Shown piece by piece: positions 1 through 62,876 of a DNA stretch of 64,000 nucleotides (position 1 is the stretch's first letter; each line of letters opens with the position of its first letter). Origin of the DNA: a phage. The notes under the pieces were generated by a model that saw only the letters and a program-made list of their open reading frames with translations, was not told the DNA's origin and made no database searches. The stretch lies in the sequence record PV808484.1. One strand, written 5' to 3'. The position numbers and the translations under genes are program-made.

Positions 1-216
1 CCGCACACTGTTAAAAAATGCAAGTCAAGTTTTATTTTCAGATGACGAGTATTTCAACAAAGACATTACAGGCGTGAAAAATTTAAAAGACGTGAAGGAT
101 GTTATCGGTATCCGTGGATCTTTACGTAAAGGTGACATATACGGTAACAAGGTGCAATATAAACTGTCAAAAGATTATGATTTTACTTTGACAATTATCA
201 ATTAAGGGATCACAAA

Positions 217-375
217 ATGAAAACTTGCCAATGTGGTAAAAAGTCTATCTCTGGTTTAAAACGTGGCGTTGCTCTTTGTCAATATCACTATAACGCTCAA
301 ACGTGGGGTAAGCAGTGGGCGGATCAGATGGAAGAGGCAAAGAAAGAAAATATAAAAGTAGTTGCAAAGAAATAA
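217..375 (+). CDS. small Cys-rich protein (52 aa), possible zinc-binding
   Basis: ATG 217, stop 373-375; CQCG...CQYH spacing; below the 60 aa ORF-track cutoff. Confidence 0.35.
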   Translation: MKTCQCGKKSISGLKRGVALCQYHYNAQTWGKQWADQMEEAKKENIKVVAKK

Positions 376-400
376 AAATAAAGTAAACTGTATTCATCAA

Positions 401-422
401 GGCGGTGGAATAGCCCACCGCC
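401..422 (+). promoter_or_regulatory. GC-rich leader hairpin (GGCGGTGG-loop-CCACCGCC) just upstream of the start codon at 447
   Basis: 8 bp perfect stem read directly; same position as the conserved leader hairpins further downstream. Confidence 0.4.
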
Positions 423-446
423 TAACAAAGAGAAGAGGAAAACATC

Positions 447-617
447 ATGATCACTTTCGCTACCCGTGAAGCCGCTCGCAACGTTGCACGTAAAGTTAAC
501 GCCGCCAACCTGGGCGCTACGTTTAAAGCCCCGGTGAAAGATGAGTCAGGAAAATGGATCTTCCCTGGTCTGCGTCACGCTGATAAGCTGGGAACATTAA
601 CGTTAAAAAATAAATAA
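447..617 (+). CDS. hypothetical protein (56 aa)
   Basis: ATG 447 preceded by AGAAGAGGAA RBS-like purine run; stop 615-617. Confidence 0.35.
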   Translation: MITFATREAARNVARKVNAANLGATFKAPVKDESGKWIFPGLRHADKLGTLTLKNK

Positions 618-624
618 GATCCGC

Positions 625-683
625 TTGACAGTAGCATGATTTATAAGTAAAGTAACAACAACGGCGGGAAATGGTTTCCCGCC
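625..683 (+). promoter_or_regulatory. TTGACA-type promoter plus conserved leader hairpin GGCGGGA-AATGGTT-TCCCGCC (663-683)
   Basis: TTGACA at 625-630; identical 21 nt hairpin recurs at 2973, 4856 and 5715; followed by conserved ATCAATAAAGAGATAAG and ATG 704. Confidence 0.5.
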
Positions 684-703
684 ATCAATAAAGAGATAAG
701 ATT

Positions 704-1063
704 ATGAAATCAGTAAAAGCAATCAAAACTTACATTGTATCGGCTATTTCTTTTGAAGGTACTACAACCGAAAAAGAAAAAATCACCGAACTGATGCGCC
801 GTTTTAATTCTGAATACTGGTATCCCGATAATCAAAAACGTTACAATTATAACGTGATCAAGGCGATAGCCTCATGGTTACAAGGTTTACCGTCAGACAT
901 TAACATCGCCTTTGATTATAACGAGATCGATCACTTGTTAATTGAATGGAAGTACATAAAAGAAACAAGCAAAGAAACAACCGTTACCCGTGAGCGGGAA
1001 AATTATTGGTTATATATTGCAAGCATGATCGTAATCCTGGCAAAACAGCATAACGTGGCGTAA
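704..1063 (+). CDS. hypothetical protein
   Basis: ORF track; start directly after conserved leader. Confidence 0.5.
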   Translation: MKSVKAIKTYIVSAISFEGTTTEKEKITELMRRFNSEYWYPDNQKRYNYNVIKAIASWLQGLPSDINIAFDYNEIDHLLIEWKYIKETSKETTVTRERENYWLYIASMIVILAKQHNVA

Positions 1064-1078
1064 TTAAGAGGAAGAAAC

Positions 1079-1216
1079 ATGAACGCATCACAGCAGATCG
1101 AAAAATTCAACCGCAGCAAGGCGCGTAAAGATTGGAACGAAGAGATCACCAAAAAAGGCGACAAGCGGAACAAAACAAAAAGAGATCGCAGCACAAAAAG
1201 ACACTGGAACGAATAA
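1079..1216 (+). CDS. small basic protein (45 aa)
   Basis: AAGAGG RBS, ATG 1079; Lys/Arg-rich; followed by terminator. Confidence 0.35.
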   Translation: MNASQQIEKFNRSKARKDWNEEITKKGDKRNKTKRDRSTKRHWNE

Positions 1217-1223
1217 CAAAAAA

Positions 1224-1244
1224 GGGCGCAATAAGCGCCCTTTT
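1224..1244 (+). terminator. intrinsic terminator hairpin GGGCGC-AATAA-GCGCCC plus T-run
   Basis: read directly. Confidence 0.6.
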
Positions 1245-1334
1245 AGCTTATATAGAGGCTTGTTACCCATAGGCAATGGTAACGCCAGGGCAAGCCTATA
1301 AACAACGTTAGACGGCTTTACAGGAGCTTTAAAA

Positions 1335-1517
1335 ATGAGATTAGAAGAAATAAGCAAGGCACTAGCCCAGGGGCAAAGGTTATGCGCCAGATATCGTGAT
1401 CAATATGGCTTCATAACTAGCGGCGTGATCCTGGGGATTGAAGGCAATAAGATTTTTATTGACACGTTGAAAAACGTTGTATATAGTGACAATATAATCT
1501 CAATAAAACATATATGA
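1335..1517 (+). CDS. hypothetical protein
   Basis: ORF track. Confidence 0.4.
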   Translation: MRLEEISKALAQGQRLCARYRDQYGFITSGVILGIEGNKIFIDTLKNVVYSDNIISIKHI

Positions 1518-1525
1518 GGCAAGAA

Positions 1526-1927
1526 ATGAAAAACTTATTGATCGCTGGTTTACTCTCTTTTGGTATGGTTGGAACATCTAGCGCGGCGATATCCTCCACA
1601 GTAGCAGAATTAAGCGCCGTTGATGCAATGGAAAACGTCATGCTTATTAATAATGCGATCCCCGATGAAATCATGGAGGATTCACACATGATCGCTTATG
1701 GTGCTGTTACACAACTAACGGCAAAAATAGATAAATCTATTGTTAATGGCTTAAATGAAGATGTACCATGTGAAATTATTACCAGTGTGCTTACTACTCA
1801 AAATTTTACGCCGTGGTTAAAAAGTATTCAAAAAGTACACAGTACAGCCGCAGATCGTAGCAATGAAAAACTAGTGTCAGCACTTGCAACGTATACCCTA
1901 GCAAAATGCACCGAGATAAAAGATTGA
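1526..1927 (+). CDS. hypothetical secreted protein (N-terminal signal-peptide-like segment)
   Basis: start moved to the ATG at 1526 (MKNLLIAGLLSFGMVGTSSAA hydrophobic leader). Confidence 0.45.
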   Translation: MKNLLIAGLLSFGMVGTSSAAISSTVAELSAVDAMENVMLINNAIPDEIMEDSHMIAYGAVTQLTAKIDKSIVNGLNEDVPCEIITSVLTTQNFTPWLKSIQKVHSTAADRSNEKLVSALATYTLAKCTEIKD

Positions 1928-1974
1928 CAACATAGAAAGCACGTTATAAGATACACACAACAAAGGAGAACTAC

Positions 1975-3735: not shown

Positions 3736-3797
3736 TTGACAGTGATTTGTTATTTGATAAGATGTACTACGTAGGGCGTGGCAATAAGGCAACGCCC
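3736..3797 (+). promoter_or_regulatory. TTGACA promoter plus leader hairpin GGGCGT...ACGCCC
   Basis: read directly; precedes ATG 3819. Confidence 0.45.
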
Positions 3798-21155: not shown

Positions 21156-21968
21156 TTACTTAGTCAAATGATCTTCTATCATTTTTATGAAAGCAGGATT
21201 GCTAAAAGCATCTGCTGCCTTTTCTCTATAAACAAAGACTCCTCTATCTTCGTAAAGAAGAGTTTCTTCGTAATTAATTCCTGGGTTAACAACAATCATT
21301 TTTGTACCCATATTAAGTGCAGGGAATAATTCCCAATTAAAATTGATAACTTGGTTTGAACATCCTACTACAACAACCAAATCTTGCATGGTCAAAGTAT
21401 CAAACAAGTGAGCCATATCTGCATACAAAGGTGCAGCCTCACCAAAAAATACAACATTAGGCTTCACCCAGTTATAATCATCTATGTTTATACTATTGTA
21501 ACCAATGTCTACCAGTGTTTTGTAATCTCCAGGATGCATACGGTAAACTACTTCAGGAAGATACCCGTGCACGTGAATAACAGAATCCCTGTCCACACCT
21601 GCTCGCTCTAGTAGATCATCAACGTTTGTTGTCAAGTTTACTACTTGGTTAGGATATTCCTTAAACCACTTTGCTATTTGAATATGTGCAGCATTAGGTT
21701 GTACATCTTTAAGCTCAACACGTCTTTTGTTATAAAATTCGTGTGTTTTGGCATACAAGTCCATACCGTTCTCGTCTACACCACCGACCACTGGAAGATC
21801 TGGAGATGTTCTCACACGATAACCTGCTTGGAAAGCTCCAATATCGCAGACCTCTTCTAAGTCATATTCTTCCCATAAGGCACGACCACTATCTGTGTCT
21901 GTTCGGAACGTTCGAATCCCACTGTCTGCACTTAAACCTGCGCCACTAACAAAAATTACTCTTCGCAT
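21156..21968 (-). CDS. sirtuin-like (Sir2/CobB family) NAD-dependent protein
   Basis: GAGLSADSGIRTFR, NVDDLLERAG, HVHGYL and VVFFGE match sirtuin signature blocks in order. Confidence 0.75.
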   Translation of the reverse strand: MRRVIFVSGAGLSADSGIRTFRTDTDSGRALWEEYDLEEVCDIGAFQAGYRVRTSPDLPVVGGVDENGMDLYAKTHEFYNKRRVELKDVQPNAAHIQIAKWFKEYPNQVVNLTTNVDDLLERAGVDRDSVIHVHGYLPEVVYRMHPGDYKTLVDIGYNSINIDDYNWVKPNVVFFGEAAPLYADMAHLFDTLTMQDLVVVVGCSNQVINFNWELFPALNMGTKMIVVNPGINYEETLLYEDRGVFVYREKAADAFSNPAFIKMIEDHLTK

Positions 21969-35633: not shown

Positions 35634-36623
35634 TTAAACTTTATTTTCCCACCACTCTTTGTTATCTACATACCAATCAATGGTTGAATAAAGTTTTTCT
35701 TCAAATGTGCCTTTAGCTTTCCACCCTAATTCCTTTTCAATCTTATAAGGATTCACTTCATATCTTAAATCATGCCCAGGTCTATCTGTAACCATCTCAA
35801 TGAGGCTACAAGCATCTGTTTCAGATGGATATACCGCATCCATATAATCACAAATCATATAGATTACATCAATATTAGTTCTAGGGTTTCTGCTCCCAAT
35901 ATTATATGTCTCTCCAGATTTGCCTTTAGTTACTACCAGGTGTAATGCTTCTGCGTGATCATCAACGTATAGCCAATCTCTTACTTGAAGACCATCGCCA
36001 TAAACAGGGATTGGTTTATTCATTAAGATATTTGTTATCGTCTTAGGTATTAGTTTTTCTGGATGATGATATGCTCCAAAATTATTTGAACAATTTGTTA
36101 TAACTGTCGGAATACCATAAGTACGATGCCACGCTCTTACCAAATGATCGCTTGCAGCTTTAGATGCAGCATATGGACTACTTGGTTTATAAGGATTCTG
36201 TTCTGTAAACGGATAATCCCCTTCTTCCATATCACCATACACTTCATCTGTTGAAATATGATGGAACATTTTAAGATTTGATTTATCTCCCATTAAACGA
36301 ACAGCTTCTAGAAGATTAAATGTTCCAACAATATTTGAATTTATAAAAACACTCGGTGATGCTATTGAATTATCTACGTGACTCTCTGCTGCAAGATGCA
36401 TTATATAATCTGGATTAACATCTGCCACAATCTTAGCAGTTAACTGCGCATTTGTCAAGTCAACACGACAAAACTTTACATTAGGTGTTTCTGATAAATT
36501 TCTAGGGTCTGAAGCGTAACCCCATTTATCTATAACGTAAATATCATTCTTAGTATTTTTAGCTAGGAAACGAACTACCGCACTTCCAATAAAGCCTAAA
36601 CCACCTGTTACTAAGTATTTCAT
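35634..36623 (-). CDS. rmlB: dTDP-glucose 4,6-dehydratase
   Basis: [19 protein letters not shown], catalytic [11 protein letters not shown] (YxxxK), ISTDEVYG. Confidence 0.9.
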
Positions 36624-54288: not shown

Positions 54289-54663
54289 TTAATAGTTAAC
54301 ACGTTTAATTTCAACACCATAGGATGAAATAAAATTTTCCTTAGCTAACATATATTTACCAGCAGCAGAAGGATTTGATGTATGAACATAGATAGTTTTA
54401 AGAGCATCCCATTCACCCGCGTACAACATACATTCTACATCCAAGAACGCATGATATCCTTCTTGATCTTCTCCAAGATCATTGTCGAAGTGTATCTCTG
54501 AGATAGTATTGAAATTATCTTCATCTGAAACAAAAGCTAACCAATCCTCAAAAGATTTTAACCAAATGGCATCCTCATAACCATAATCTTTAGGATTTCT
54601 TAAATCGTCTAACCAAAGAATTTTAGCCACTATCAACCCCCTGCCTGTTTCTCTTCTTTCCAA
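54289..54663 (-). CDS. hypothetical protein
   Basis: ORF track. Confidence 0.45.
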   Translation of the reverse strand: MERRETGRGLIVAKILWLDDLRNPKDYGYEDAIWLKSFEDWLAFVSDEDNFNTISEIHFDNDLGEDQEGYHAFLDVECMLYAGEWDALKTIYVHTSNPSAAGKYMLAKENFISSYGVEIKRVNY

Positions 54664-56416: not shown

Positions 56417-56677
56417 AACCCCCGAAAAACGCCGAGCGCAGCGAGGGGGTGTTATCTAATCTTGTGATACATGATCTAACAGACAACTGAGTAGTCTACA
56501 TATAGCACTATGTTATGTCTATAATACTAACATACATACTCTATACTAACAATAGATTCTTTATTAATTTTATTATTAATTAAATAATAAATTAAATAAT
56601 AAATATCTATTGACTTTAGATCTATCTGGAGGTAGAGTAGAGAACATAAAGTCCTAACTCAACTAAGGAGATAAAGA

Positions 56678-57571
56678 ATGAAAGTTAGTATTCTACATGG
56701 TGTTGACTGTTATGTTACTGATGTAGACGTTAAAGTGTTTACATTCTCTGGTGGAGAACAACATGTTCAATTAGATACGAACCTGTCAGGTTTCAATCAT
56801 GCTACAGACAGAATCTTACTCACATTAGAAGTAAGATCTGCTAAAGACTTGATGACTTTGGTTATGACTAAGAATGCATTGGACAATATGCTATATCATA
56901 AACCATATTGTGTTGATTTACTCATGTTGTATGTACCGTATGCACGACAAGACAGAGTGTGTGAGCCTGGGGAAGCATTTGGAGTTAAAGCATTTGCTTC
57001 TATAATTAACTCATTAAATTTCTCACGTGTTATCGTTGCTGATCCACACAGTGATGTTACTCCAGCAGTGTTTGACAGACTCTGTGTAATACCTCAAGAA
57101 GAGATTGCTTACGAAACTTTAAAATGGAAGTTACGTATGGAGAATTTTGCTCTTGTTAGTCCTGATGGTGGTGCTCTTAAGAAAATATTTAAATTATCTA
57201 AGAAAATGTCTTTAGATGTGTTCTGTGCAGAGAAGGTTAGAGATACCGCAACAGGTGCTATTGTTCGTACAGACATTTCTGTACAGGATTTCAATAAGCG
57301 TAACCTGATGATCGTAGACGATATCTGTGATGGTGGTAGAACTTTTATCGAATTGGCTAAAGTGCTACGTGCTCGTAACGCAGGTAAGATTGAGCTATAT
57401 GTTACACACGGTATCTTTTCTAAAGGTCTTAAAGAGTTAAGTGAGCACTTTGACTGCATTCATTCTCTTAATATATGGGAAGATAACATCCAAGAAGATT
57501 CCGGTGTTCTTGTTAAGAATCAGTCAGATTTGCAACAACAAATTGTATCTCCATACGTGTGGAATTTTTAA
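56678..57571 (+). CDS. prs: ribose-phosphate pyrophosphokinase (Prs)-like enzyme; candidate ADP-ribose pyrophosphokinase
   Basis: YVPYARQDR, VIVADPHSD and MIVDDICDGGRTF phosphoribosyltransferase-type blocks aligned to Prs. Confidence 0.8.
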   Translation: MKVSILHGVDCYVTDVDVKVFTFSGGEQHVQLDTNLSGFNHATDRILLTLEVRSAKDLMTLVMTKNALDNMLYHKPYCVDLLMLYVPYARQDRVCEPGEAFGVKAFASIINSLNFSRVIVADPHSDVTPAVFDRLCVIPQEEIAYETLKWKLRMENFALVSPDGGALKKIFKLSKKMSLDVFCAEKVRDTATGAIVRTDISVQDFNKRNLMIVDDICDGGRTFIELAKVLRARNAGKIELYVTHGIFSKGLKELSEHFDCIHSLNIWEDNIQEDSGVLVKNQSDLQQQIVSPYVWNF

Positions 57572-57581
57572 ATAATAAGTG

Positions 57582-57625
57582 TTGACAATAGGGAGTATGC
57601 TTAGTAAGATACTCCCACACTAACA
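57582..57625 (+). promoter_or_regulatory. TTGACA promoter plus leader hairpin GGGAGTAT-N-ATACTCCC
   Basis: read directly upstream of ATG 57643. Confidence 0.45.
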
Positions 57626-57642
57626 AACAAGGAGACATAACT

Positions 57643-59376
57643 ATGAATATTTTTGCACCTTTTGCTACTGATTGGTATAAACCTGGTCACAAGCAGATGT
57701 ACAACCAAAATACAAAACTTATTTTCTCTAATTTAACTCCTCGTAATGATAAAAACTTTGCACACTATGCAGATCGTGAAGCACGTGGTGTCATTGTTTT
57801 AGGTATTCGTAGAGCAGTAACCGATGCTCTTGTAACTATGTGGGACGGCTTCTTTAAAATGTCTCGTAGTGCAGCAGTAAATAAATTTTATCGTATGTCT
57901 AAAAATGCATTAGGTGCTTCTGCTCCTTCTGCTGAATGTTGGGGAGAATTGCACGATTTAGGTTATCTTCCGCTGGAAGTTCGATCTCTGCCAGAAGGTG
58001 TTTTGTGTCCTATTGGTGTTCCTGTGTTTACTGTGCATAATACTTTAGAAAAATTCTTTTGGTTAACTAATTATGTGGAAACACTGTTGTCAGATGAAAC
58101 TTGGAAGACAATGACTAATGCCACAGCAGCTTTTCAGTATAAGCGTATCGCTATGGCATATGCGATGGCAACGTGTGATAATATTGATCACGTTAACTTC
58201 CAGTGTCATGACTTTAGCCTACGTGGTTTAAGTAATATCGAAGATGGTTATAAGAGTGGTATCGCTCATTTGGCATCGTTCACAGGAACAGATAATATTC
58301 TGGCTATTGAAACTGTACATGATTATTATGGTATTGATTATGATCAGTTTGTTGCAGGTTCTATTCCGGCTACAGAACATTCAGTAGCAACGACTAACAT
58401 TGGAGCTATTGTTGAAGATCTGAAGGAACATTTCCCACGTCTTAAAGATGATGTAGATTGGCTTCGTTATGTAGCAGAAAAAGAGTTTCTTCGTCGTTAT
58501 ATTGAAGAAATTGTTCCAGAAGGTTTTTGTTCATATGTAGCAGATTCTTATGATTACTGGGCTGTATTGACTAACATTCTGGTAGAGTTGAAAGATTCTA
58601 TTATGTCACGAAATGGTCGTCTTGTTATTCGTCCAGACTCAGGAGATCCGGTTAAAGTTGTTGCAGGATACAATATTGAATCTTTTGATAACTATGAAGA
58701 CCTTTTAAATAATGGTATTGCGACAGCCACTGAAGTAGTTCATTTGGCTGATGTTAATAAGTATTACAATGTTCTTCAGGATTGCAGTGTTGCTGACTGT
58801 ATTGATGAAACTTATGAAATTCCTTATTATGAAGCAGTAGGTTCTATTCAAATCCTTTGGGAAGTGTTTGGTGGTACTATCAACCGAAAAGGCTACAAGG
58901 TTCTTGATCAGCATATCGGTATGATTTATGGTGATTCTATTACTGTTGAACGAGAACACGAGATCTTACGCCGACTGAAGAAGAAAGGTTTTGCAGCTTC
59001 CAATATTGTATTTGGTGTTGGTAGTTATACTTATCAGTTCAATACACGAGATACTTTCGGTTTTGCTGTTAAAGCAACAGGTAGTATCATCGGTGAACAC
59101 GAAATTTTGGTAAGTAAGGAGCCTAAAACTGATCCTGGTAAACGCTCTGCAAAAGGCTTTATTAAGGTTGTTAAGGATACCAATGGTAATCTCTCTCTTG
59201 TAGATAATCTTTCTTTTAAAGATATCCAGGATGAAGACAATGAGTTACAAGTTATCTTCAAGAATGGTAAGGTTATTACACCACAAGTAGAAGGACGTGA
59301 TGAAACATTTACTGATATCCGCAACCGTGTTGACGTAGAGGTTCTTCGTACTATGGGAACCATCCAGGTTGACTAA
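57643..59376 (+). CDS. nadV: nicotinamide phosphoribosyltransferase (NAMPT/NadV)-like enzyme
   Basis: N-terminal FATDWYKPGHKQMY block typical of NAMPT; 577 aa with extensions. Confidence 0.85.
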   Translation: MNIFAPFATDWYKPGHKQMYNQNTKLIFSNLTPRNDKNFAHYADREARGVIVLGIRRAVTDALVTMWDGFFKMSRSAAVNKFYRMSKNALGASAPSAECWGELHDLGYLPLEVRSLPEGVLCPIGVPVFTVHNTLEKFFWLTNYVETLLSDETWKTMTNATAAFQYKRIAMAYAMATCDNIDHVNFQCHDFSLRGLSNIEDGYKSGIAHLASFTGTDNILAIETVHDYYGIDYDQFVAGSIPATEHSVATTNIGAIVEDLKEHFPRLKDDVDWLRYVAEKEFLRRYIEEIVPEGFCSYVADSYDYWAVLTNILVELKDSIMSRNGRLVIRPDSGDPVKVVAGYNIESFDNYEDLLNNGIATATEVVHLADVNKYYNVLQDCSVADCIDETYEIPYYEAVGSIQILWEVFGGTINRKGYKVLDQHIGMIYGDSITVEREHEILRRLKKKGFAASNIVFGVGSYTYQFNTRDTFGFAVKATGSIIGEHEILVSKEPKTDPGKRSAKGFIKVVKDTNGNLSLVDNLSFKDIQDEDNELQVIFKNGKVITPQVEGRDETFTDIRNRVDVEVLRTMGTIQVD

Positions 59377-59447: not shown

Positions 59448-59669
59448 ATGAAACAACATAATTTTTATTTTCGTTGCCGAGCCTGTAACAGACACTTGAC
59501 TAATCATTCCCGTAGAGACAGGAATGGTAATATTCAAGAGTCGGATCTATGCTCGATTTGTACAAGTTTGGCATTCGACGACAGTCCCGAAAGGGTTTAT
59601 CAACATCAAAGTGTAACTGATCTTCTTCTAAATTACACAGCATCAGAGGAGGAATTAGATTTCACATAA
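59448..59669 (+). CDS. small zinc-finger-like protein
   Basis: CRACNRH...CSIC. Confidence 0.45.
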   Translation: MKQHNFYFRCRACNRHLTNHSRRDRNGNIQESDLCSICTSLAFDDSPERVYQHQSVTDLLLNYTASEEELDFT

Positions 59670-59830: not shown

Positions 59831-59860
59831 TTGACAACATAGCTAGTTATTTGCTAAGAT
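59831..59860 (+). promoter_or_regulatory. TTGACA-type promoter
   Basis: TTGACA 59831-59836, TAAGAT about 18 bp downstream. Confidence 0.4.
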
Positions 59861-59889: not shown

Positions 59890-60156
59890 ATGACAGAAAA
59901 GACTTATGGCAAAGAATTGATTGAGAAGCACGTATTGATTGATAATAAAGGTGGAGCAATCTTTATTTTTGATCCTGAATCAGTTCTTACTGAAAACGAA
60001 AATGGTAGCGTTAGCCTTAAAACAGAAAGTTTGGTAATTGACTTCCTTGCTCTTCTGGATGAAATGGGGCTTCCTCACGAAGAAGAAGCAGCTATTGCTT
60101 TGATTGCAGTTCTTCTGGAGAAACGCGAAGCTGGTGAAATGACCCAGTATGCTTAA
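59890..60156 (+). CDS. hypothetical protein
   Basis: ORF track; AAAGGAG RBS. Confidence 0.5.
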   Translation: MTEKTYGKELIEKHVLIDNKGGAIFIFDPESVLTENENGSVSLKTESLVIDFLALLDEMGLPHEEEAAIALIAVLLEKREAGEMTQYA

Positions 60157-60270: not shown

Positions 60271-60356
60271 GCAAGTGTGGTGGAATTGGTGATACACATT
60301 GTGCTTAAAACGCAACGCTTAAATGATTGAGGGTTCGAATCCCTCCACTTGCACCA
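60271..60356 (+). tRNA. tRNA-Leu (anticodon TAA), class II
   Basis: acceptor GCAAGTG/CACTTGC, T-arm GAGGG-TTCGAAT-CCCTC, anticodon loop CTTAAAA, long variable arm, encoded CCA. Confidence 0.7.
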
Positions 60357-60358
60357 AC

Positions 60359-60464
60359 GCCTAGTAGGGTATTTGGTAATTCCGAGGCCATCAAAGCCTG
60401 AAAAATATGTTAGACCGCTTTGTCTAACTAAATACGAAATATGGTTCGATTCCATAACTAGGCT
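60359..60464 (+). tRNA. atypical 106 nt tRNA-like element
   Basis: perfect 7 bp acceptor GCCTAGT/ACTAGGC and canonical T-arm TATGG-TTCGATT-CCATA, but about 30 nt too long; candidate anticodon loop CATCAAA. Confidence 0.3.
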
Positions 60465-60497
60465 TCAATTTAAATAGTAATTTTAGTAAAAAATATC

Positions 60498-60526
60498 TTG
60501 ACATTTACTTAGTTTTTTGTTATAGT
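60498..60526 (+). promoter_or_regulatory. promoter TTGACA-17-TATAGT driving downstream tRNAs
   Basis: read directly; ideal 17 bp spacing. Confidence 0.55.
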
Positions 60527-60537
60527 CGTTATGAAAA

Positions 60538-60619
60538 CGGGGTGTATCTCACCTGACTTCTAATCAGGCGTTAACCGAGTAATTGGAGTATGCAGGTTCG
60601 AATCCTGTCACCCCGGCCA
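60538..60619 (+). tRNA. tRNA-like element, possible tRNA-Arg (anticodon loop CTTCTAA) with irregular D region
   Basis: perfect acceptor CGGGGTG/CACCCCG, T-arm GCAGG-TTCGAAT-CCTGT, CCA; perfect stem-loop CCTGA-CTTCTAA-TCAGG; cloverleaf not resolved. Confidence 0.4.
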
Positions 60620-60682
60620 AAAAGTTTTAAAAACTACTTGACAAGCAAGATAGTTTTATGTTAGATTTAAAGTATGATAACT

Positions 60683-60772
60683 GGAAGGTAGGGCGCAGCG
60701 GTGCGCAACCAGGTTTGAACCCTGGCCCATTGTAGCGATACGGTGATGGTTCGACTCCATTATCTTCCTCCA
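60683..60772 (+). tRNA. tRNA-Ser (anticodon TGA), class II
   Basis: acceptor GGAAGGT/ATCTTCC, D-arm GCGC-AGCGGT-GCGC, anticodon arm CCAGG-TTTGAAC-CCTGG, 19 nt variable arm, T-arm GATGG-TTCGACT-CCATT, CCA. Confidence 0.8.
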
Positions 60773-60790
60773 AATTCAATGAGTGATTTT

Positions 60791-60943
60791 ATGAATTATA
60801 AAACTATTGGACAGGTTGTTACCGGAGTTAAGATTGTAAATAATAAAGTTGTTTATGAGTATTCTAATCTTCAACAATCTGAAGATGGTAAGAATATTCG
60901 TATGGTAAAAGCAGAACAAAAAGATTCCGGTTGTTTTGAATAA
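60791..60943 (+). CDS. hypothetical protein (50 aa)
   Basis: internal ATG of ORF 60743..60943; the upstream part overlaps tRNA-Ser. Confidence 0.35.
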   Translation: MNYKTIGQVVTGVKIVNNKVVYEYSNLQQSEDGKNIRMVKAEQKDSGCFE

Positions 60944-60951
60944 TTAAGAAC

Positions 60952-61037
60952 GGTAGATTGGTGAAATGGTAGCCACAACAGTTTGCTAAACTGTCGTCGG
61001 AAACGGCGTGTAGGTTCAAGTCCTACATCTACCGCCA
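60952..61037 (+). tRNA. tRNA-Ser (anticodon GCT), class II
   Basis: acceptor GGTAGAT/ATCTACC, anticodon arm ACAGT-TTGCTAA-ACTGT, variable hairpin CGTCGGAAACGGCG, T-arm GTAGG-TTCAAGT-CCTAC, CCA. Confidence 0.8.
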
Positions 61038-61172
61038 AGTTATCTTTAATGTAGCTTGTAATCTTACTTTAGCAGAGTAAATCTTCGGCAAGTGGCGGTA
61101 ACCACTTTACCGATACCCCAATACTTCATAGCTAAGTGCCGCAAACACTGGCTATTTTAAAGATAATTTTAT

Positions 61173-61247
61173 ACATCGTTAGCCAAGCGGTAAGGCACTT
61201 GACTTTTAATCAAGGGAGCGAAGGTTCGAATCCTTCACGATGTACCA
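61173..61247 (+). tRNA. tRNA-Lys (anticodon TTT)
   Basis: acceptor ACATCGT/ACGATGT, anticodon arm CTTGA-CTTTTAA-TCAAG, T-arm GAAGG-TTCGAAT-CCTTC, CCA. Confidence 0.85.
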
Positions 61248-61252
61248 AACAC

Positions 61253-61339
61253 GTAGGTATCGCATAGCGGCAATTGCTGGAGACTGTAAATCTCCTGCCC
61301 TTCGGGGCTTCGTTGGTTCGAGTCCAACTACCTGCACCA
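61253..61339 (+). tRNA. tRNA-Tyr (anticodon GTA), class II
   Basis: acceptor GTAGGTA/TACCTGC (one G-U), anticodon arm GGAGA-CTGTAAA-TCTCC, variable hairpin, T-arm GTTGG-TTCGAGT-CCAAC, CCA. Confidence 0.8.
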
Positions 61340-61346
61340 AATTAAA

Positions 61347-61431
61347 GATGGATTGGCCTAGTGGTTGGGCGACGGACTGTTAATCCGTGAACGAAAGTTC
61401 TAGCAAGGTTCAAATCCTTGATCCATCGCCA
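61347..61431 (+). tRNA. tRNA with Asn anticodon (GTT) on a class II (long variable arm) scaffold
   Basis: acceptor GATGGAT/ATCCATC, 3 bp D-stem GCC/GGC, anticodon arm ACGGA-CTGTTAA-TCCGT, 15 nt extra arm GAACGAAAGTTCTAG, T-arm CAAGG-TTCAAAT-CCTTG, G73, CCA. Confidence 0.65.
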
Positions 61432-61435
61432 AATA

Positions 61436-61504
61436 GTGCTTGTAGAGTTAATAGAAACCTCTAGAATTTTCTAGAATTGTAGGTATCAAATCCTACCAAG
61501 CAAA
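61436..61504 (+). tRNA. tRNA-like element, no encoded CCA, irregular anticodon region
   Basis: 6 bp acceptor pairing, T-arm GTAGG...CCTAC with 8 nt loop; region contains TCTAGA-ATTTTC-TAGA palindrome. Confidence 0.25.
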
Positions 61505-61510
61505 TATTTT

Positions 61511-61585
61511 GCTCCTATCGTATAACGGCTATTACGGTTGCCTTGTAAGCAACTTATCAGGGTTCGAGTCCTTGTGGGAGCACCA
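61511..61585 (+). tRNA. tRNA-Thr (anticodon TGT)
   Basis: acceptor GCTCCTA/TGGGAGC (one G-U), anticodon arm GTTGC-CTTGTAA-GCAAC, T-arm CAGGG-TTCGAGT-CCTTG, CCA. Confidence 0.8.
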
Positions 61586-61607
61586 ATTTAACTCTAAAGG
61601 AGTGTAT

Positions 61608-61931
61608 GTGACAGAAAAAGAGTTAGAGAAATATTTTAATATCAATGTTTTCGATGGTTTTGATGATATTGAAGATGTTGAAAGATACTATGAAGTAGAG
61701 TTAGATAAGGATAACATTGTAATTCTTTCTGCCACTTATGATTGTGCATATTATGAAGGCGAATCTCACGTTTATTTCTATGATATGAAAACATCTTTGT
61801 TTTATGAAGTACACGCATATCATTGTTCTTGTTATGGCTTAGAAGGTCAGTGGGAACCTGAAGAAATAGGTGATTTGAGCTTTACGGTTGCATATCTAAA
61901 CAGACGTGGTGCATCTACTATTTTAAAATAA
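61608..61931 (+). CDS. hypothetical protein
   Basis: GTG start 5 nt after AAAGGAG RBS; the ORF-track N-terminus overlaps tRNA-Thr. Confidence 0.45.
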   Translation: MTEKELEKYFNINVFDGFDDIEDVERYYEVELDKDNIVILSATYDCAYYEGESHVYFYDMKTSLFYEVHAYHCSCYGLEGQWEPEEIGDLSFTVAYLNRRGASTILK

Positions 61932-61945
61932 ATATTAAAAGCCTC

Positions 61946-61975
61946 TTGACAAAGGGGCTAATAATATGTTAGAGT
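61946..61975 (+). promoter_or_regulatory. TTGACA-type promoter upstream of tRNA-Gly
   Basis: TTGACA 61946-61951. Confidence 0.45.
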
Positions 61976-61986
61976 AATATTGTTAA

Positions 61987-62061
61987 GCGGGTATAGTGTT
62001 AATGGTAGCATATGAGGTTTCCACCCTCCAGGTGCAGGTTCAAGTCCTGTTACTCGCTCCA
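61987..62061 (+). tRNA. tRNA-Gly (anticodon TCC)
   Basis: acceptor GCGGGTA/TACTCGC, anticodon loop TTTCCAC, T-arm GCAGG-TTCAAGT-CCTGT, CCA. Confidence 0.7.
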
Positions 62062-62160
62062 AGATTATTTAAATGGAATCGCTAGAGAAAATTTCTCTTT
62101 TCGCTCATGGTTTTCTCCTTCAAACTCTAGCGGTTCTTTTTAAGTGATTTTTAGTTTTAT

Positions 62161-62235
62161 TGGAGATTAGCCTAGTGGGAAGGCAACGGCCTTTGAAGTC
62201 GTGATGACTAGGTTCGATTCCTAGATCTCCAGCCA
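62161..62235 (+). tRNA. tRNA-Gln (anticodon TTG)
   Basis: U1-A72 acceptor TGGAGAT/ATCTCCA, anticodon arm ACGGC-CTTTGAA-GTCGT, T-arm CTAGG-TTCGATT-CCTAG, CCA. Confidence 0.85.
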
Positions 62236-62242
62236 ATATTTA

Positions 62243-62318
62243 CAGTGCGTAGCGCAGTTGGTAGCGTGGGAGCTTTGGATGCTTCGGGTCGCAGGTTCGA
62301 GTCCTGCCGCACTGACCA
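62243..62318 (+). tRNA. tRNA-Pro (anticodon TGG)
   Basis: acceptor CAGTGCG/CGCACTG, D-arm GCGC-AGTTGGTA-GCGT, anticodon arm GGAGC-TTTGGAT-GCTTC, T-arm GCAGG-TTCGAGT-CCTGC, CCA. Confidence 0.85.
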
Positions 62319-62323
62319 AATTT

Positions 62324-62398
62324 GCAGAGATAGCTGAGACGGATTAGTGCTACCCTGAAAAGGTAGAAAGGATGGATCGTTACCATCTCTCTGCACCA
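62324..62398 (+). tRNA. tRNA-Phe (anticodon GAA)
   Basis: acceptor GCAGAGA/TCTCTGC, anticodon arm CTACC-CTGAAAA-GGTAG, T-arm GATGG-ATCGTTA-CCATC, CCA. Confidence 0.8.
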
Positions 62399-62475
62399 AA
62401 TAACACCATCCAAGGAGTAGACTTGGTTAACTGTCAATAGCACATTGAGGCTTCTTACAGTGGTGCACTTATTAT

Positions 62476-62560
62476 GGCTAAGTGGTGGAATGGTATACAC
62501 GATACGCTTAGAACGTATTGCCCCAAGGGATTGTGAGTTCGAGTCTCACCTTAGCTACCA
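62476..62560 (+). tRNA. tRNA-Leu (anticodon TAG), class II
   Basis: acceptor GGCTAAG/CTTAGCT, anticodon arm ATACG-CTTAGAA-CGTAT, long variable arm, T-arm GTGAG-TTCGAGT-CTCAC, CCA. Confidence 0.8.
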
Positions 62561-62575
62561 AATTACTACAGATTG

Positions 62576-62654
62576 CGCGGGATAGAGGAGTCTGGTCGTC
62601 CTCGCCAGTTTCATATGCTGGAGATCATCGGTTCGAATCCGATTCCCGCCTCCA
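62576..62654 (+). tRNA. tRNA-Met (anticodon CAT; elongator, initiator or Ile2 not distinguishable)
   Basis: acceptor with one C-C mismatch at pair 1-72, D-arm GAGG...CCTC, anticodon arm CCAGT-TTCATAT-GCTGG, T-arm ATCGG-TTCGAAT-CCGAT, CCA. Confidence 0.7.
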
Positions 62655-62698
62655 ATAAATACTTCCCTTCTGGTGTAATGATTAAATTACATTGACAC

Positions 62699-62795
62699 TT
62701 CAAGGAACTCATAGCCGGGTAGATTTAAAAGAGTATGGTACTCAATATGGCTCCAAACCATAGATCAGGGGGTTCGATTCCTCACCTTGCTGCCA
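62699..62795 (+). tRNA. tRNA-like element with Trp anticodon loop (CTCCAAA) but unpaired or extended 5' region
   Basis: perfect anticodon arm TATGG-CTCCAAA-CCATA, T-arm GGGGG-TTCGATT-CCTCA, CCA; 5' acceptor partner only 5 bp and about 22 nt too far upstream. Confidence 0.35.
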
Positions 62796-62800
62796 ATTAT

Positions 62801-62876
62801 TGTGGTATCGTACAGATGGTTAGTACACTCGACCGATAATCGAGAAACAACGGTTCGACTCCGTTTACCACGACCA
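62801..62876 (+). tRNA. tRNA-Ile (anticodon GAT)
   Basis: acceptor TGTGGTA/TACCACG, D-arm GTAC...GTAC, anticodon arm CTCGA-CCGATAA-TCGAG, T-arm AACGG-TTCGACT-CCGTT, CCA. Confidence 0.85.

What the first reader, a model, noticed from the sequence alone, without database searches (positions are those of the whole stretch)
56678..59376. Adjacent Prs-like and NAMPT-like genes: candidate two-enzyme NAD+ reconstitution (anti-defence) module
A 297 aa ribose-phosphate-pyrophosphokinase-like protein (YARQDR, DPHSD and VDDICDGG blocks) sits immediately upstream of a 577 aa nicotinamide-phosphoribosyltransferase-like protein (FATDWYKPGH N-terminus), each with its own TTGACA promoter. Phage NadV and Prs homologues were long annotated as NAD salvage. 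To my recollection, recent work showed that such a phage pair can act as an ADP-ribose pyrophosphokinase plus a nicotinamide ADP-ribose transferase that rebuilds NAD+ from ADP-ribose and nicotinamide, countering NAD-depleting host defences. The same phage also carries a sirtuin-like NAD consumer at 21156-21968, which makes NAD handling a recurring theme of this genome. The NAMPT-like protein is about 90 aa longer than typical bacterial enzymes, so its extensions deserve a look.
Basis: partly seen in the sequence, partly recalled or inferred. Interest (0 to 1): 0.85.

Follow-up and report, generated by a model that had tools for sequence, protein, structure and literature searches.

The report
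Known phage NAD+ rebuilding gene pair
These two adjacent genes of a phi92-like E. coli phage are the already-described NARP1 pair (Adps plus Namat), which rebuilds NAD+ from ADP-ribose and nicotinamide to defeat NAD-depleting bacterial defences. The same genes in sister phages are already listed in the paper that discovered the pathway.

Summary
A 297-aa Prs-like ORF (56678-57571) and a 577-aa NAMPT-like ORF (57643-59376) sit 71 nt apart on the + strand, with every quoted motif present. The window is a phi92-like Justusliebigvirus.

Osterman et al. (2024) list the same proteins from phi92, PHB05 and three BASEL phages as an Adps homologue with adjacent Namat and as Adps-associated Namat. Those three phages plus Bas63 are the four BASEL phages that opened that study.

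My own tests agree:
- The Prs-like protein scores like tested Adps enzymes and far below genuine E. coli Prs on Prs models.
- It keeps the essential lysine (K186, equivalent to SpβL1 K162).
- The NAMPT-like protein carries the published Namat signature (GSYTYQFNTRD).
- All 20 NAD+-contacting residues of the SpβL1 Namat crystal structure are identical or conservatively replaced.
- Namat crystal structures are its best sequence and fold matches.

The extra ~90 aa are lineage-specific insertions shared with the genetically tested Bas63 Namat (593 aa). No paper in the searched library reports biochemistry or a knock-out for the phi92 lineage itself.

Verdict: a real, correctly read feature that is already known. 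Interest is low.

The parts
56610..56638 (+). Promoter-like element TTGACT-N17-TAGAGT, 40 nt upstream of the Adps start
   Evidence: Consensus scan, 9/12 match. It belongs to the TTGACW-N16-18-TARRRT set, found 12 times against 1.2 expected. Function is inferred.
56665..56671 (+). Shine-Dalgarno AAGGAGA for the Adps gene
   Evidence: Read from the sequence. The spacer to the ATG is 6 nt.
56678..57571 (+). adps: ADP-ribose pyrophosphokinase (ADPR-PP synthetase), 297 aa, Prs superfamily
   Evidence: ORF. Scores: TIGR01251 118 bits, Prs equivalog models <=98 bits against cut-offs of 296-536, phrog_619 306 bits. This is the same pattern as the tested Bas63 and SpβL1 Adps and unlike E. coli Prs. 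It is 294/297 identical to the phi92 protein listed in Osterman Table S1.
56939..56956 (+). YARQDR block (aa 88-93), the Prs-type RQDR ATP/phosphate-binding motif
   Evidence: Position. R90, D92 and R93 are invariant in the alignment with tested Adps proteins and E. coli Prs.
57233..57235 (+). Codon for K186, equivalent to SpβL1 Adps K162, whose K162A mutation abolishes NARP1
   Evidence: Alignment A2. Position check. Mutant data in Osterman et al..
57314..57343 (+). VDDICDGGRT (aa 213-222), the PRTase-type ribose/5'-phosphate binding loop, identical to Bas63 Adps (LDDICDGGRT)
   Evidence: Alignment A2. E. coli Prs has VDDMIDTGGT at this position.
57578..57621 (+). Intergenic hairpin (inner stem GGGAGUAU/AUACUCCC) overlapping the -10 of the second promoter-like site; no U-tract follows it
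   Evidence: RNA fold -15.3 kcal/mol, z = -2.8. Function unknown.
57582..57610 (+). Promoter-like element TTGACA-N17-TAAGAT in the 71-nt gap before the Namat gene
   Evidence: 10/12 match. The exact pattern occurs 5 times in the window against 0.08 expected, always co-oriented with the local genes.
57629..57635 (+). Shine-Dalgarno AAGGAGA for the Namat gene
   Evidence: Read from the sequence. The spacer to the ATG is 7 nt.
57643..59376 (+). namat: nicotinamide ADP-ribose transferase, 577 aa, NAMPT/NadV fold
   Evidence: ORF. Best PDB sequence hits are 9W5X/9W5W SpβL1 Namat (E 1e-118), against 2e-100 for H. ducreyi NadV and 4e-50 for human NAMPT. It is 43% identical to the tested Bas63 Namat. 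AlphaFold2 model pLDDT 89, top fold hit 9W5X with TM 0.93.
57745..57789 (+). Selectivity-clamp loop (SCL), aa 35-49 (NDKNFAHYADREARG), 6 aa longer than in SpβL1; K37 aligns with SpβL1 R40
   Evidence: HMMER alignment and residue mapping. In 120 long-form homologues position 3 is K or R in all, and position 5 is F or Y in all.
58378..58380 (+). Codon for H246 (ATEHSV), the catalytic histidine of the NAMPT/Namat core
   Evidence: Alignments. The histidine's role is described in PMC12774641.
58399..58488 (+). Insertion 1 (aa 253-282, about +23 aa relative to SpβL1 Namat), predicted as part of a helical hairpin (helices 246-263 and 271-290)
   Evidence: Gap between HMMER domains. Secondary structure from the model, with pLDDT about 90. 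55% conserved among long-form homologues.
58630..58647 (+). RPDSGD (aa 330-335): R330 and D332 are equivalent to SpβL1 R306 and D308 (R306A/G abolishes activity)
   Evidence: Residue mapping. Mutant data.
58669..58839 (+). Insertion 2 (aa 343-399, about +46 aa), predicted as a small ordered beta-rich lobe with poorly conserved sequence
   Evidence: Gap between HMMER domains. Model strands 345-348, 365-368, 373-377 and 387-392, pLDDT 75-94. Only 27% mean identity, against 63-71% in the core. Bas63 Namat has an even longer insertion at the same site.
59020..59052 (+). Selectivity-clamp helix (SCH) signature GSYTYQFNTRD (aa 460-470); Y462 and F466 are equivalent to the adenine-stacking F392 and Y396 of SpβL1 Namat
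   Evidence: Matches the published consensus GS-X-Phi-X-Phi-X-Phi-TRD. Residue mapping. NadV has GAQTYQRNTRD and mammalian NAMPT has GSGGALLQKLTRD.

Best explanation
The two genes encode NAD+ reconstitution pathway 1 (NARP1).

The mechanism is inferred by homology to tested relatives:
1. An NAD-depleting host defence (SIR2-, TIR- or SEFIR-type) cleaves NAD+ into ADP-ribose and nicotinamide.
2. The first enzyme (Adps, a diverged Prs) uses ATP to pyrophosphorylate the terminal ribose of ADP-ribose, giving ADPR-PP.
3. The second enzyme (Namat, a diverged NAMPT) replaces that pyrophosphate with nicotinamide, giving NAD+ directly.
4. This restores the pool the phage needs to replicate.

Namat's preference for ADPR-PP over PRPP comes from an adenine-binding clamp. 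In the window protein the clamp residues are Y462 and F466 on the clamp helix, plus K37 and probably F39 on the clamp loop.

Shown here: gene presence, family membership, conserved catalytic and clamp residues, fold, synteny, and near-identity to catalogued NARP1 genes.

Inferred: the two reactions and the anti-defence phenotype in this phage lineage.
For: (1) Catalogue. Osterman Table S1 lists the phi92, PHB05, EmilieFrey, JohannJBalmer and PaulScherrer proteins as Adps homologues with Namat within 10 genes. Table S2 lists their partners as Adps-associated. The window Adps differs from the phi92 entry at 3 of 297 residues. The pair is 97-98% identical in DNA to 56 phage records. Exactly four BASEL phages are in Table S2: Bas63 plus these three.

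(2) Adps versus Prs. On TIGR01251, PRK01259 and phrog_619 the bit scores are:
- window: 118 / 98 / 306
- Bas63 Adps: 138 / 101 / 333
- SpβL1 Adps: 106 / 74 / 248
- E. coli Prs: 423 / 533 / 193
. The catalytic lysine is conserved.

(3) Namat versus NAMPT. The SCH signature is present. All 20 NAD+-contact residues of 9W5W are identical or conservative: R40K, A362S, F392Y, Y396F. PDB E-values are 1e-118 for Namat, 2e-100 for NadV and 4e-50 for human NAMPT. The fold search ranks Namat first.

(4) Linkage. The order Adps then Namat, on the same strand, is kept in homologues only 49-56% identical. Natural Adps-Namat fusions exist: phrog_12872 is hit by both proteins, and the Ag3 entry is a fusion.

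(5) Tested relatives. These are Bas63 (knock-out, metabolomics), SpβL1 (biochemistry, structure), Fado, ICP1 NrsAB, DyoEdafos, Gary and P. foliorum.
Against: No enzyme assay or knock-out has been reported for the phi92-like lineage in the searched library.

The window Adps is only 29-32% identical to the tested Adps proteins (23% to E. coli Prs), and no residue-level determinant of ADPR versus ribose-5-phosphate specificity is known. I therefore could not test the Adps active site directly.

I did not build my own Adps/Prs phylogeny. Clade placement rests on the published table plus HMM score patterns.

The SCL departs from the published rule: the fourth residue is N38, not aromatic.

The fold search alone barely separates Namat from NadV (TM 0.93 against 0.92).

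The two genes may be separately transcribed rather than forming one operon.
Confidence: 0.9

Rival explanations
1. This is the classical reading of the database annotations. The first enzyme is a true PRPP synthetase and the second a true nicotinamide phosphoribosyltransferase. They would make NMN, which host or phage NMN adenylyltransferase converts to NAD+ (a NARP2-like or plain salvage route).
For: Both proteins pass general family thresholds: TIGR01251 118 bits against a cut-off of 113, and NF006629 463 bits against 405. All 56 related GenBank records annotate them this way. SpβL1 Namat can make NMN from PRPP in vitro when ADPR-PP is absent.
Against: The tested Adps and Namat pass the same thresholds, so those models do not discriminate.

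The window protein fails every Prs equivalog model by 200-480 bits, whereas E. coli Prs scores 232-533 bits on them.

The Namat-specific aromatic clamp is present.

No NMNAT is annotated in the closest complete genome, and the one 'nucleotidyltransferase' gives only a weak PolyA_pol-head match.

Purified SpβL1 Adps gave no Prs-type product but converted ADPR plus ATP to ADPR-PP. Bas63 needed neither host PncC nor NadR.
Confidence: 0.05
2. The biochemistry is the same (ADPR plus nicotinamide to NAD+), but the selective benefit is housekeeping rather than anti-defence. The pair would keep NAD+ up during a large-genome lytic infection, for example by recycling products of phage or host NAD consumers such as the phage's own CobB-like sirtuin.
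For: The phage encodes a sirtuin-class SIR2 protein. The pair sits among nucleotide-metabolism and tRNA genes, not in an obvious anti-defence island.
Against: In Bas63, ADPR-PP appeared only when the SIR2-HerA defence was present, and the knock-out had a phenotype only on defence-carrying hosts. Sirtuin deacylation yields O-acyl-ADPR rather than free ADPR (general knowledge of sirtuin chemistry). Nothing here tests a link between the SIR2 gene and the pair; they lie 35 kb apart on opposite strands.
Confidence: 0.05

Closest known systems
NARP1 of phi92-like phages (phi92 gp107/gp108; PHB05; BASEL EmilieFrey, JohannJBalmer, PaulScherrer) as catalogued in Osterman et al. 2024, Tables S1 and S2
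   Same: This is the same gene pair. DNA identity is 97-98% across both genes. The Adps is 294/297 identical to the phi92 entry. Order, spacing and flanks are the same.
   Different: Only a handful of substitutions. None of these phages has been tested experimentally.
Bas63 (JohannRWettstein, Felixounavirus) NARP1, genes 79-80: the founding, genetically tested example
   Same: Same architecture, with Adps followed by Namat. The Adps ribose-loop motif DDICDGGRTF is identical. The Namat is also long-form (593 aa) with insertions at the same two sites, and its SCH is GSYTYQYMTRD.
   Different: Identity is 32% for Adps and 43% for Namat. The intergenic gap is 45 nt against 71 nt here. SCL residue 4 is W in Bas63 and N here. 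The genomic neighbourhood differs: nrd genes and rIIA/B in Bas63, against a strand-switch and tRNA cluster here.
SpβL1 NARP1 (biochemically and structurally characterised; Namat PDB 9W5X/9W5W)
   Same: The fold matches (TM 0.93). All NAD+-contact residues are conserved or conservative. The Adps catalytic lysine is conserved.
   Different: SpβL1 Namat is about 490 aa and lacks the ~91 extra residues (SCL +6, insertion 1 +23, insertion 2 +46, C-tail +19). Its SCL uses R40 where the window has K37. Adps identity is only 29%.
ICP1 NrsAB (Vibrio phage; counters Nezha/SIR2-HerA)
   Same: Its Adps homologue is about 41% identical to the window's, which makes it the closest genetically tested relative found.
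   Different: The host and phage family differ. It was tested only genetically.
NARP1-AP (Vibrio phage Gary: Adps-Adpp-Namat) and RyDEP-containing NARP1 loci (mycobacteriophage DyoEdafos)
   Same: The core Adps and Namat enzymes are the same.
   Different: There is no Macro or RyR gene in or beside this pair. An Adpp-family Macro protein exists in the sister genome PHB05, but about 67 kb away.
Bacterial Prs plus NadV/NAMPT, and phage NARP2 (KVP40 Nampt plus Nmnat)
   Same: The superfamilies, folds and catalytic cores are the same.
   Different: Those enzymes use ribose-5-phosphate and PRPP, and need an NMN adenylyltransferase step. NadV and NAMPT lack the aromatic clamp residues. Genuine Prs scores 300-430 bits higher on Prs models.

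Membership tests
NARP1 (Adps + Namat) | An Adps gene and a Namat gene in close proximity (within 10 genes; typically adjacent, Adps first) | tested here: met
   The genes are adjacent on the same strand with a 71-nt gap. The same arrangement is found in homologues 49-56% identical.
NARP1 (Adps + Namat) | The Prs-like protein belongs to the Adps clade of Osterman et al. rather than to cellular Prs | tested here: met
   Orthologues about 99% identical (phi92, PHB05, three BASEL phages) are listed in Table S1 'Adps homologs'. The HMM score pattern matches tested Adps proteins, not E. coli Prs. I did not build my own tree.
NARP1 (Adps + Namat) | The Adps catalytic lysine (SpβL1 K162) and the Prs-type ATP and ribose motifs are retained | tested here: met
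   K186 aligns with K162. RQDR, DPHS, PDxG and the DD loop are all present.
NARP1 (Adps + Namat) | The Adps active site accepts ADP-ribose rather than ribose-5-phosphate | not testable with these tools
   No Adps structure appears among the PDB hits, which are all Prs. The structural paper states that Adps selectivity remains obscure.
NARP1 (Adps + Namat) | [quoted passage not shown] | tested here: met
   The window has GSYTYQFNTRD, with Y462 and F466. 117 of 120 long-form homologues carry the motif.
NARP1 (Adps + Namat) | Namat clamp loop: third residue is R, K or Y; if K or Y, the fourth residue stacks on adenine | tested here: inconclusive
   The third residue is K37, so that part is met. 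The fourth is N38, which is not aromatic. The fifth, F39, is F or Y in 120 of 120 long-form homologues. Which residue stacks needs a ligand-bound model.
NARP1 (Adps + Namat) | Conserved NAMPT-like catalytic core (SpβL1 D13, Y15, F189, R192, D215, catalytic His, R306, D308) | tested here: met
   All are identical in the window: D10, Y12, F191, R194, D217, H246, R330, D332.
NARP1 (Adps + Namat) | Enzymatic production of ADPR-PP and then NAD+, and rescue from NAD-depleting defences | not testable with these tools
   Shown for Bas63, SpβL1, Fado, ICP1, DyoEdafos, Gary and P. foliorum. Never shown for a phi92-like phage in the searched library.
Bona fide ribose-phosphate pyrophosphokinase (Prs) | Scores above the curated cut-off of an NCBIfam Prs equivalog or PRK model | tested here: not met
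   The best such scores are 97-98 bits against cut-offs of 296-297. E. coli Prs scores 533 bits. Only the broad subfamily model TIGR01251 is passed (118 against 113), and the tested Bas63 Adps passes it too.
PRPP-specific NAMPT / NadV | The clamp-helix-equivalent region lacks adenine-stacking aromatics (for example GAQTYQRNTRD in HdNadV, GSGGALLQKLTRD in mammals) | tested here: not met
   The window has aromatics at both positions. It does pass the NF006629 'equivalog' cut-off (463 against 405), but so does the tested Bas63 Namat at 468, so that model does not discriminate.
NARP2 (Nampt + Nmnat) | A partner NMN adenylyltransferase gene | tested here: not met
   None is found next to the pair. 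None is annotated in the whole sister genome PHB05, and its 'nucleotidyltransferase' is not an NMNAT.
NARP1-AP / RyDEP-extended NARP1 | A Macro-domain phosphatase (Adpp) or RyR-domain glycosidase gene within the NARP1 locus | tested here: not met
   The neighbours carry no Macro or RyR domain. tblastn of Gary Adpp against the window gives nothing below E = 0.28. phi92-like phages are absent from the NARP1-AP table.

The most novel reading that the evidence does not exclude
In phi92-like phages NAD+ repair may be a dispersed network rather than a closed two-gene operon. Adps and Namat appear to be separately promoted. An unlinked Adpp-family Macro phosphatase could act with them in trans. In the sister genome PHB05 this is gp179, whose residues 88-237 are 41% identical to the validated ADPR-1''-phosphatase of Vibrio phage Gary. 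It sits beside a ComF-like PRTase and a HAD hydrolase, about 67 kb from the pair.

Such an arrangement would also let the phage defeat aRES-type defences that leave a phosphate on ADPR. Published catalogues would miss it, because they only count Macro genes inside the NARP1 locus. A weaker variant of this reading is that the two Namat insertions form a lobe that docks Adps to hand over the labile ADPR-PP.
Probability: 0.25. Interest if true: 0.4.

Novelty: already known. Interest (0 to 1): 0.15.

Why it matters
NARP1 is an important recent discovery: phages defeat a whole class of NAD-depleting defences (Thoeris I, DSR1/2, SIR2-HerA, SEFIR, short pAgo-SIR2, Kongming) by rebuilding the depleted metabolite.

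This window adds nothing new to that picture. The same genes in sister phages are in the discovery paper's own tables, and anti-defence annotation tools already carry NARP1 models.

The practical value is corrective. About 50 GenBank records of this phage genus still call these genes 'ribose-phosphate pyrophosphokinase' and 'nicotinamide phosphoribosyltransferase'. Phi92-like phages are being considered for therapy, so knowing they carry NARP1 helps predict their performance on strains with NAD-depleting defences.

Two small open points remain: which clamp-loop residue stacks on adenine in long-form Namats, and whether the unlinked Adpp-like Macro protein cooperates with the pair.

Tried and rejected
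- **Fold as a discriminator.** The model matches Namat (TM 0.93), H. ducreyi NadV (0.92) and human NAMPT (0.89) almost equally. I therefore relied on the sequence signature instead.
- **NCBIfam 'equivalog' NF006629 and TIGR01251 as evidence for the classical functions.** Rejected, because the experimentally tested Namat and Adps pass them too.
- **Active-site test of ADPR versus ribose-5-phosphate in Adps.** No Adps structure or known determinant exists. The ribose-loop differs between tested Adps lineages (DGGRT against SFGGT), so no single signature could be applied.
- **Locating the insertions relative to the active site.** Model coordinates are not exposed to scripts, so only secondary structure and pLDDT could be used.
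- **Accessory genes near the pair.** Pfam, PHROG and tblastn found no Macro, RyR or NMNAT.
- **PADLOC scan.** Nothing meaningful.
- **Rfam scan of the flanks.** Only sub-threshold chance hits.
- **Terminator scan.** No terminator follows either gene. One weak minus-strand hairpin lies in the upstream gap.
- **Own Adps/Prs phylogeny.** Not built, because I lacked a diverse set of genuine Prs sequences. I used HMM score calibration and the published table instead.
- **Counting the exact SCH strings in Osterman Table S2.** This failed, probably because long sequences are truncated in the stored file.
- **Second and third large protein searches and the second structure job.** Left unused, because the answer would not change.


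Full report
**1. Observation**

The window contains the two ORFs exactly as described: 56678-57571 (+, 297 aa) and 57643-59376 (+, 577 aa). The gap between them is 71 nt, and each has an AAGGAGA ribosome-binding site 6-7 nt before its ATG.

The quoted motifs are all present: YARQDR at aa 88, DPHSD at aa 122, VDDICDGG at aa 213, and FATDWYKPGH at aa 7.

The first protein matches Prs-family models: Pfam Pribosyltran and Pribosyl_synth, and TIGR01251 at 118 bits. The second matches NAMPT models: PF04095 at 132 bits and NF006629 at 463 bits.

The SIR2-like ORF at 21156-21968 (- strand) is also real. It scores 81 bits on PF02146 and 354 bits on phrog_2162. Its best PDB relative is E. coli CobB, and it hits no defence-system HMM.

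**2. Where the window comes from**

Megablast places the pair in 56 phage records at 97-98% identity. All are phi92-like myoviruses of about 145-150 kb (genus Justusliebigvirus, subfamily Stephanstirmvirinae). They include phi92, PHB05 and the BASEL phages EmilieFrey, JohannJBalmer and PaulScherrer.

The pair opens a + strand block at a strand switch:
- Upstream, on the - strand, are early and DNA- or RNA-metabolism genes: DNA ligase, RNA ligase, a phosphoesterase and a cREC receiver-domain protein.
- Downstream is a cluster of 14 tRNA genes.
- In the sister genome, lysis and terminase genes follow.

**3. What the literature says**

Osterman et al. (doi 10.1101/2024.02.11.579819) began with a two-gene 'Prs + Nampt' operon that recurred in four BASEL phages. 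Their main results were:
- In Bas63 (a Felixounavirus), deleting the operon sensitised the phage about 20-fold to SIR2-HerA.
- The phage's evasion of SIR2-HerA did not require host PncC or NadR.
- Infected cells accumulated ADPR-pyrophosphate.
- The purified SpβL1 homologues performed ADPR + ATP to ADPR-PP (Adps) and ADPR-PP + nicotinamide to NAD+ (Namat).
- K162A in Adps and R306G in Namat abolish the pathway.

They found the pathway in 859 phage genomes (4.3%).

Their Table S1 ('Adps homologs') and Table S2 ('Namat homologs') explicitly contain phi92, PHB05, EmilieFrey, JohannJBalmer and PaulScherrer. The flags are 'Namat within 10 genes: Yes' and 'Adps-associated'. The phi92 Adps sequence printed there differs from the window protein at 3 of 297 positions.

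Table S2 holds exactly four BASEL genomes: Bas63 plus those three. Three of the four phages behind the discovery therefore carry this very gene pair.

Later work adds:
- crystal structures of SpβL1 Namat (9W5X, 9W5W) and a sequence signature that distinguishes Namat from Nampt (PMC12774641);
- genetic evidence in Vibrio phage ICP1;
- extended versions with a Macro phosphatase (Adpp, giving NARP1-AP) or a RyR-domain glycosidase.

**4. My own tests of the Adps assignment**

The window protein is 29-32% identical to the tested Adps proteins (SpβL1, Fado, Bas63). It is about 41% identical to ICP1 NrsA and 23% identical to E. coli Prs.

Calibrating the HMM libraries with tested proteins gives a clean separation (bit scores):

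| Protein | TIGR01251 | PRK01259 | phrog_619 |
|---|---|---|---|
| Window | 118 | 98 | 306 |
| Bas63 Adps | 138 | 101 | 333 |
| SpβL1 Adps | 106 | 74 | 248 |
| E. coli Prs | 423 | 533 | 193 |

. The protein fails every Prs equivalog cut-off by 200-480 bits.

The catalytic lysine is conserved: K186 corresponds to SpβL1 K162. The RQDR, DPHS and DD motifs are present. The ribose-loop sequence DDICDGGRTF is identical to that of Bas63 Adps.

What makes Adps accept ADPR is unknown. No Adps structure appears among the PDB hits, and the structural paper calls Adps selectivity obscure.

**5. My own tests of the Namat assignment**

By sequence, the closest solved structures are the SpβL1 Namat crystals (E 1e-118). 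H. ducreyi NadV follows at 2e-100 and human NAMPT at 4e-50.

I rebuilt the SpβL1 numbering from the alignments and mapped every residue the crystal paper lists as contacting NAD+. All 20 are identical or conservatively replaced in the window:
- Core residues: D10, Y12, F191, S192, R194, D217, A243, R330, D332, G430, D431, G460, S461, T468, R469, D470.
- Conservative replacements: R40 to K37, A362 to S432, F392 to Y462, Y396 to F466.
- The catalytic histidine is H246.

The published Namat-specific clamp-helix consensus GS-X-Phi-X-Phi-X-Phi-TRD is matched exactly by GSYTYQFNTRD. HdNadV has GAQTYQRNTRD and mammalian NAMPT has GSGGALLQKLTRD.

An AlphaFold2 model built on 35 homologues is confident (pLDDT 89, pTM 0.89). 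Its best fold matches are the Namat crystals (TM 0.93), although NadV (0.92) and human NAMPT (0.89) are nearly as good. The fold does not discriminate; the signature does.

One small deviation concerns the clamp loop. The third residue is K37, as the rule allows, but the fourth residue, said to stack on adenine when the third is K or Y, is N38. Across 120 long-form homologues:
- the fourth position is mostly N or L;
- the fifth (F39 here) is F or Y in all 120.

The fifth residue is thus the likelier stacking partner in this lineage. That is an inference.

**6. The extra ~90 residues**

Relative to SpβL1 Namat, the window protein has four additions:
- +6 aa in the clamp loop;
- +23 aa at 253-282;
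- +46 aa at 343-399;
- about +19 aa at the C-terminus.

The model predicts a helical hairpin (helices 246-263 and 271-290), a small ordered beta-rich lobe (345-399, pLDDT 75-94) and a C-terminal helix (556-571).

None of the NAD+-contact residues lies in these segments. Insertion 2 and the C-tail are poorly conserved (27% and 32% mean identity, against 63-71% in the core), as expected for surface decoration.

The tested Bas63 Namat is 593 aa and has insertions at the same sites. At least 120 homologue clusters of 555-596 aa share them. The extra length is a lineage trait of Namats from large Gram-negative phages. It is not a peculiarity of this phage. The structural paper does not discuss these insertions, and their role is unknown.

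**7. Linkage and regulation**

Homologues only 49% and 56% identical, on 151-kb and 55-kb metagenomic contigs, keep the same arrangement. The Adps-like gene lies immediately upstream, on the same strand, at a strand switch.

Natural Adps-Namat fusions exist. phrog_12872 is matched by both window proteins, and the Shigella phage Ag3 entry is such a fusion.

The element TTGACA-N16-18-TAAGAT occurs 5 times in the window against 0.08 expected, always co-oriented with the local genes. One copy lies in the 71-nt gap before namat. A looser version precedes adps.

A hairpin (-15.3 kcal/mol, z = -2.8) overlaps the -10 of the intergenic site and is not followed by a U-tract.

**8. Rival readings**

The classical Prs + Nampt reading is what about 50 GenBank records say. 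The evidence that supports it (passing broad family thresholds) is shared by the proven Adps and Namat. No NMN adenylyltransferase is present near the pair or annotated anywhere in the sister genome. The Namat clamp is present.

A housekeeping role cannot be excluded here. In Bas63, however, ADPR-PP and the knock-out phenotype appeared only when a defence system was present.

NARP1-AP and RyDEP-extended variants do not apply. No Macro or RyR gene is in or beside the locus, and phi92-like phages are absent from the NARP1-AP table.

**9. An aside that may be worth a look**

The sister genome PHB05 encodes a 238-aa Macro-domain protein (gp179), about 67 kb from the pair and outside this window. 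Its residues 88-237 are 41% identical (E 2e-36) to the validated ADPR-1''-phosphatase Adpp of Vibrio phage Gary.

It sits next to a ComF-like PRTase and a HAD hydrolase in a TerC/tellurite cluster. The gene has at least 95% identical matches in 55 phage records, about the number of phi92-like genomes. The Macro family itself is very large in phages (2909 records).

The published NARP1-AP survey only looked inside NARP1 loci. Whether this unlinked homologue feeds NARP1 is untested.

**10. Verdict**

The feature is the NARP1 Adps-Namat pair of a phi92-like phage, already catalogued by the discoverers of the pathway.

Remaining uncertainty (confidence 0.9) comes only from the lack of direct biochemistry or genetics in this lineage and the modest identity of its Adps to tested enzymes.

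Novelty: already known. Interest: low (0.15).

Noticed in passing
Outside the window: PHB05 NC_052652.1 115600-116316 (-), locus L008:15600-16316: Sister phi92-like genomes encode a 238-aa Macro-domain protein. Its residues 88-237 are 41% identical (E 2e-36) to the validated ADPR-1''-phosphatase Adpp of Vibrio phage Gary. It is unlinked to NARP1 (about 67 kb away) and sits beside a ComF-like PRTase (PF15610, 143 bits), a HAD hydrolase and TerC/tellurite genes. It could act as a trans-encoded NARP1-AP component, which operon-based catalogues would miss.
   Followed up: partly
window 21156-21968 (-): A 270-aa SIR2-family protein with the sirtuin GAGxS...GIRTFR motif. Its best PDB match is E. coli CobB (E 1.5e-18), and it hits no PADLOC defence-SIR2 model. 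The region aligned to CobB's zinc-binding cysteines contains no cysteines. It is conserved in phi92-like phages, and its substrate is unknown.
   Followed up: partly
window 54289-54663 (-): A 124-aa protein with a cREC_REC 'cyclic-phosphate processing receiver' domain (PF20274, 53.5 bits). In the sister genome the same minus-strand block also holds an RNA ligase, a metallophosphoesterase, an AAA_33 kinase-like ATPase and an ATP-dependent DNA ligase. Together these look like an RNA-repair cluster a few kb upstream of NARP1.
   Followed up: partly
window 1924-1952, 3736-3763, 36430-36458 (-), 57582-57610, 59831-59860: The promoter-like motif TTGACA-N16-18-TAAGAT occurs 5 times against 0.08 expected, always co-oriented with the local genes. 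The looser TTGACW...TARRRT occurs 12 times against 1.2 expected. This is probably the phage's host-sigma70-type early promoter set.
   Followed up: partly
window 57578-57621 (+): A stable hairpin (GGGAGUAU/AUACUCCC inner stem; -15.3 kcal/mol, z = -2.8) lies in the Adps-Namat gap. It overlaps the putative -10 and has no U-tract. Whether it is regulatory, a processing site, or nothing is unknown.
   Followed up: partly
window 60271-62876 (+): A cluster of 14 tRNA genes (Leu x2, Ser x2, Lys, Tyr, Asn, Thr, Gly, Gln, Pro, Phe, Met, Ile) lies directly downstream of the pair.
   Followed up: no
window 56678-59376; PHROG phrog_12872; Shigella phage Ag3 FJ373894_00125: Both window proteins match a single 547-position PHROG, the Adps part at profile positions 9-222 and the Namat part at 221-536. 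This corresponds to natural Adps-Namat fusion proteins in Ackermannviridae-type phages, in which the Namat N-terminal domain appears to be lost. Whether such fusions are active is unknown.
   Followed up: no
locus L010 (Logan ERR15285197 contig, 55 kb) 63-1827 (-): In a metagenomic phage contig whose Namat is 56% identical to the window's, a PnuC-like NMN transporter and an AAA_28 (NadR-kinase-like) gene lie about 1.3 kb upstream of the NARP1 pair on the opposite strand, with two small genes between. This would combine NARP1 with the NadR-plus-transporter route that Osterman et al. only hypothesised.
   Followed up: no
window 57745-57789 (Namat aa 35-49): In long-form Namats the clamp-loop residue after the conserved K is usually N or L, not aromatic. 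The next residue is F or Y in 120 of 120 homologues. The published rule that the fourth residue stacks on adenine may need to shift by one for this lineage.
   Followed up: partly
window 59448-59669 (+) and 59890-60156 (+): Two small conserved ORFs of unknown function lie between namat and the tRNA cluster. One is 73 aa with two CxxC pairs (phrog_37033); the other is 88 aa (phrog_15056). Each is preceded by a promoter-like site.
   Followed up: no
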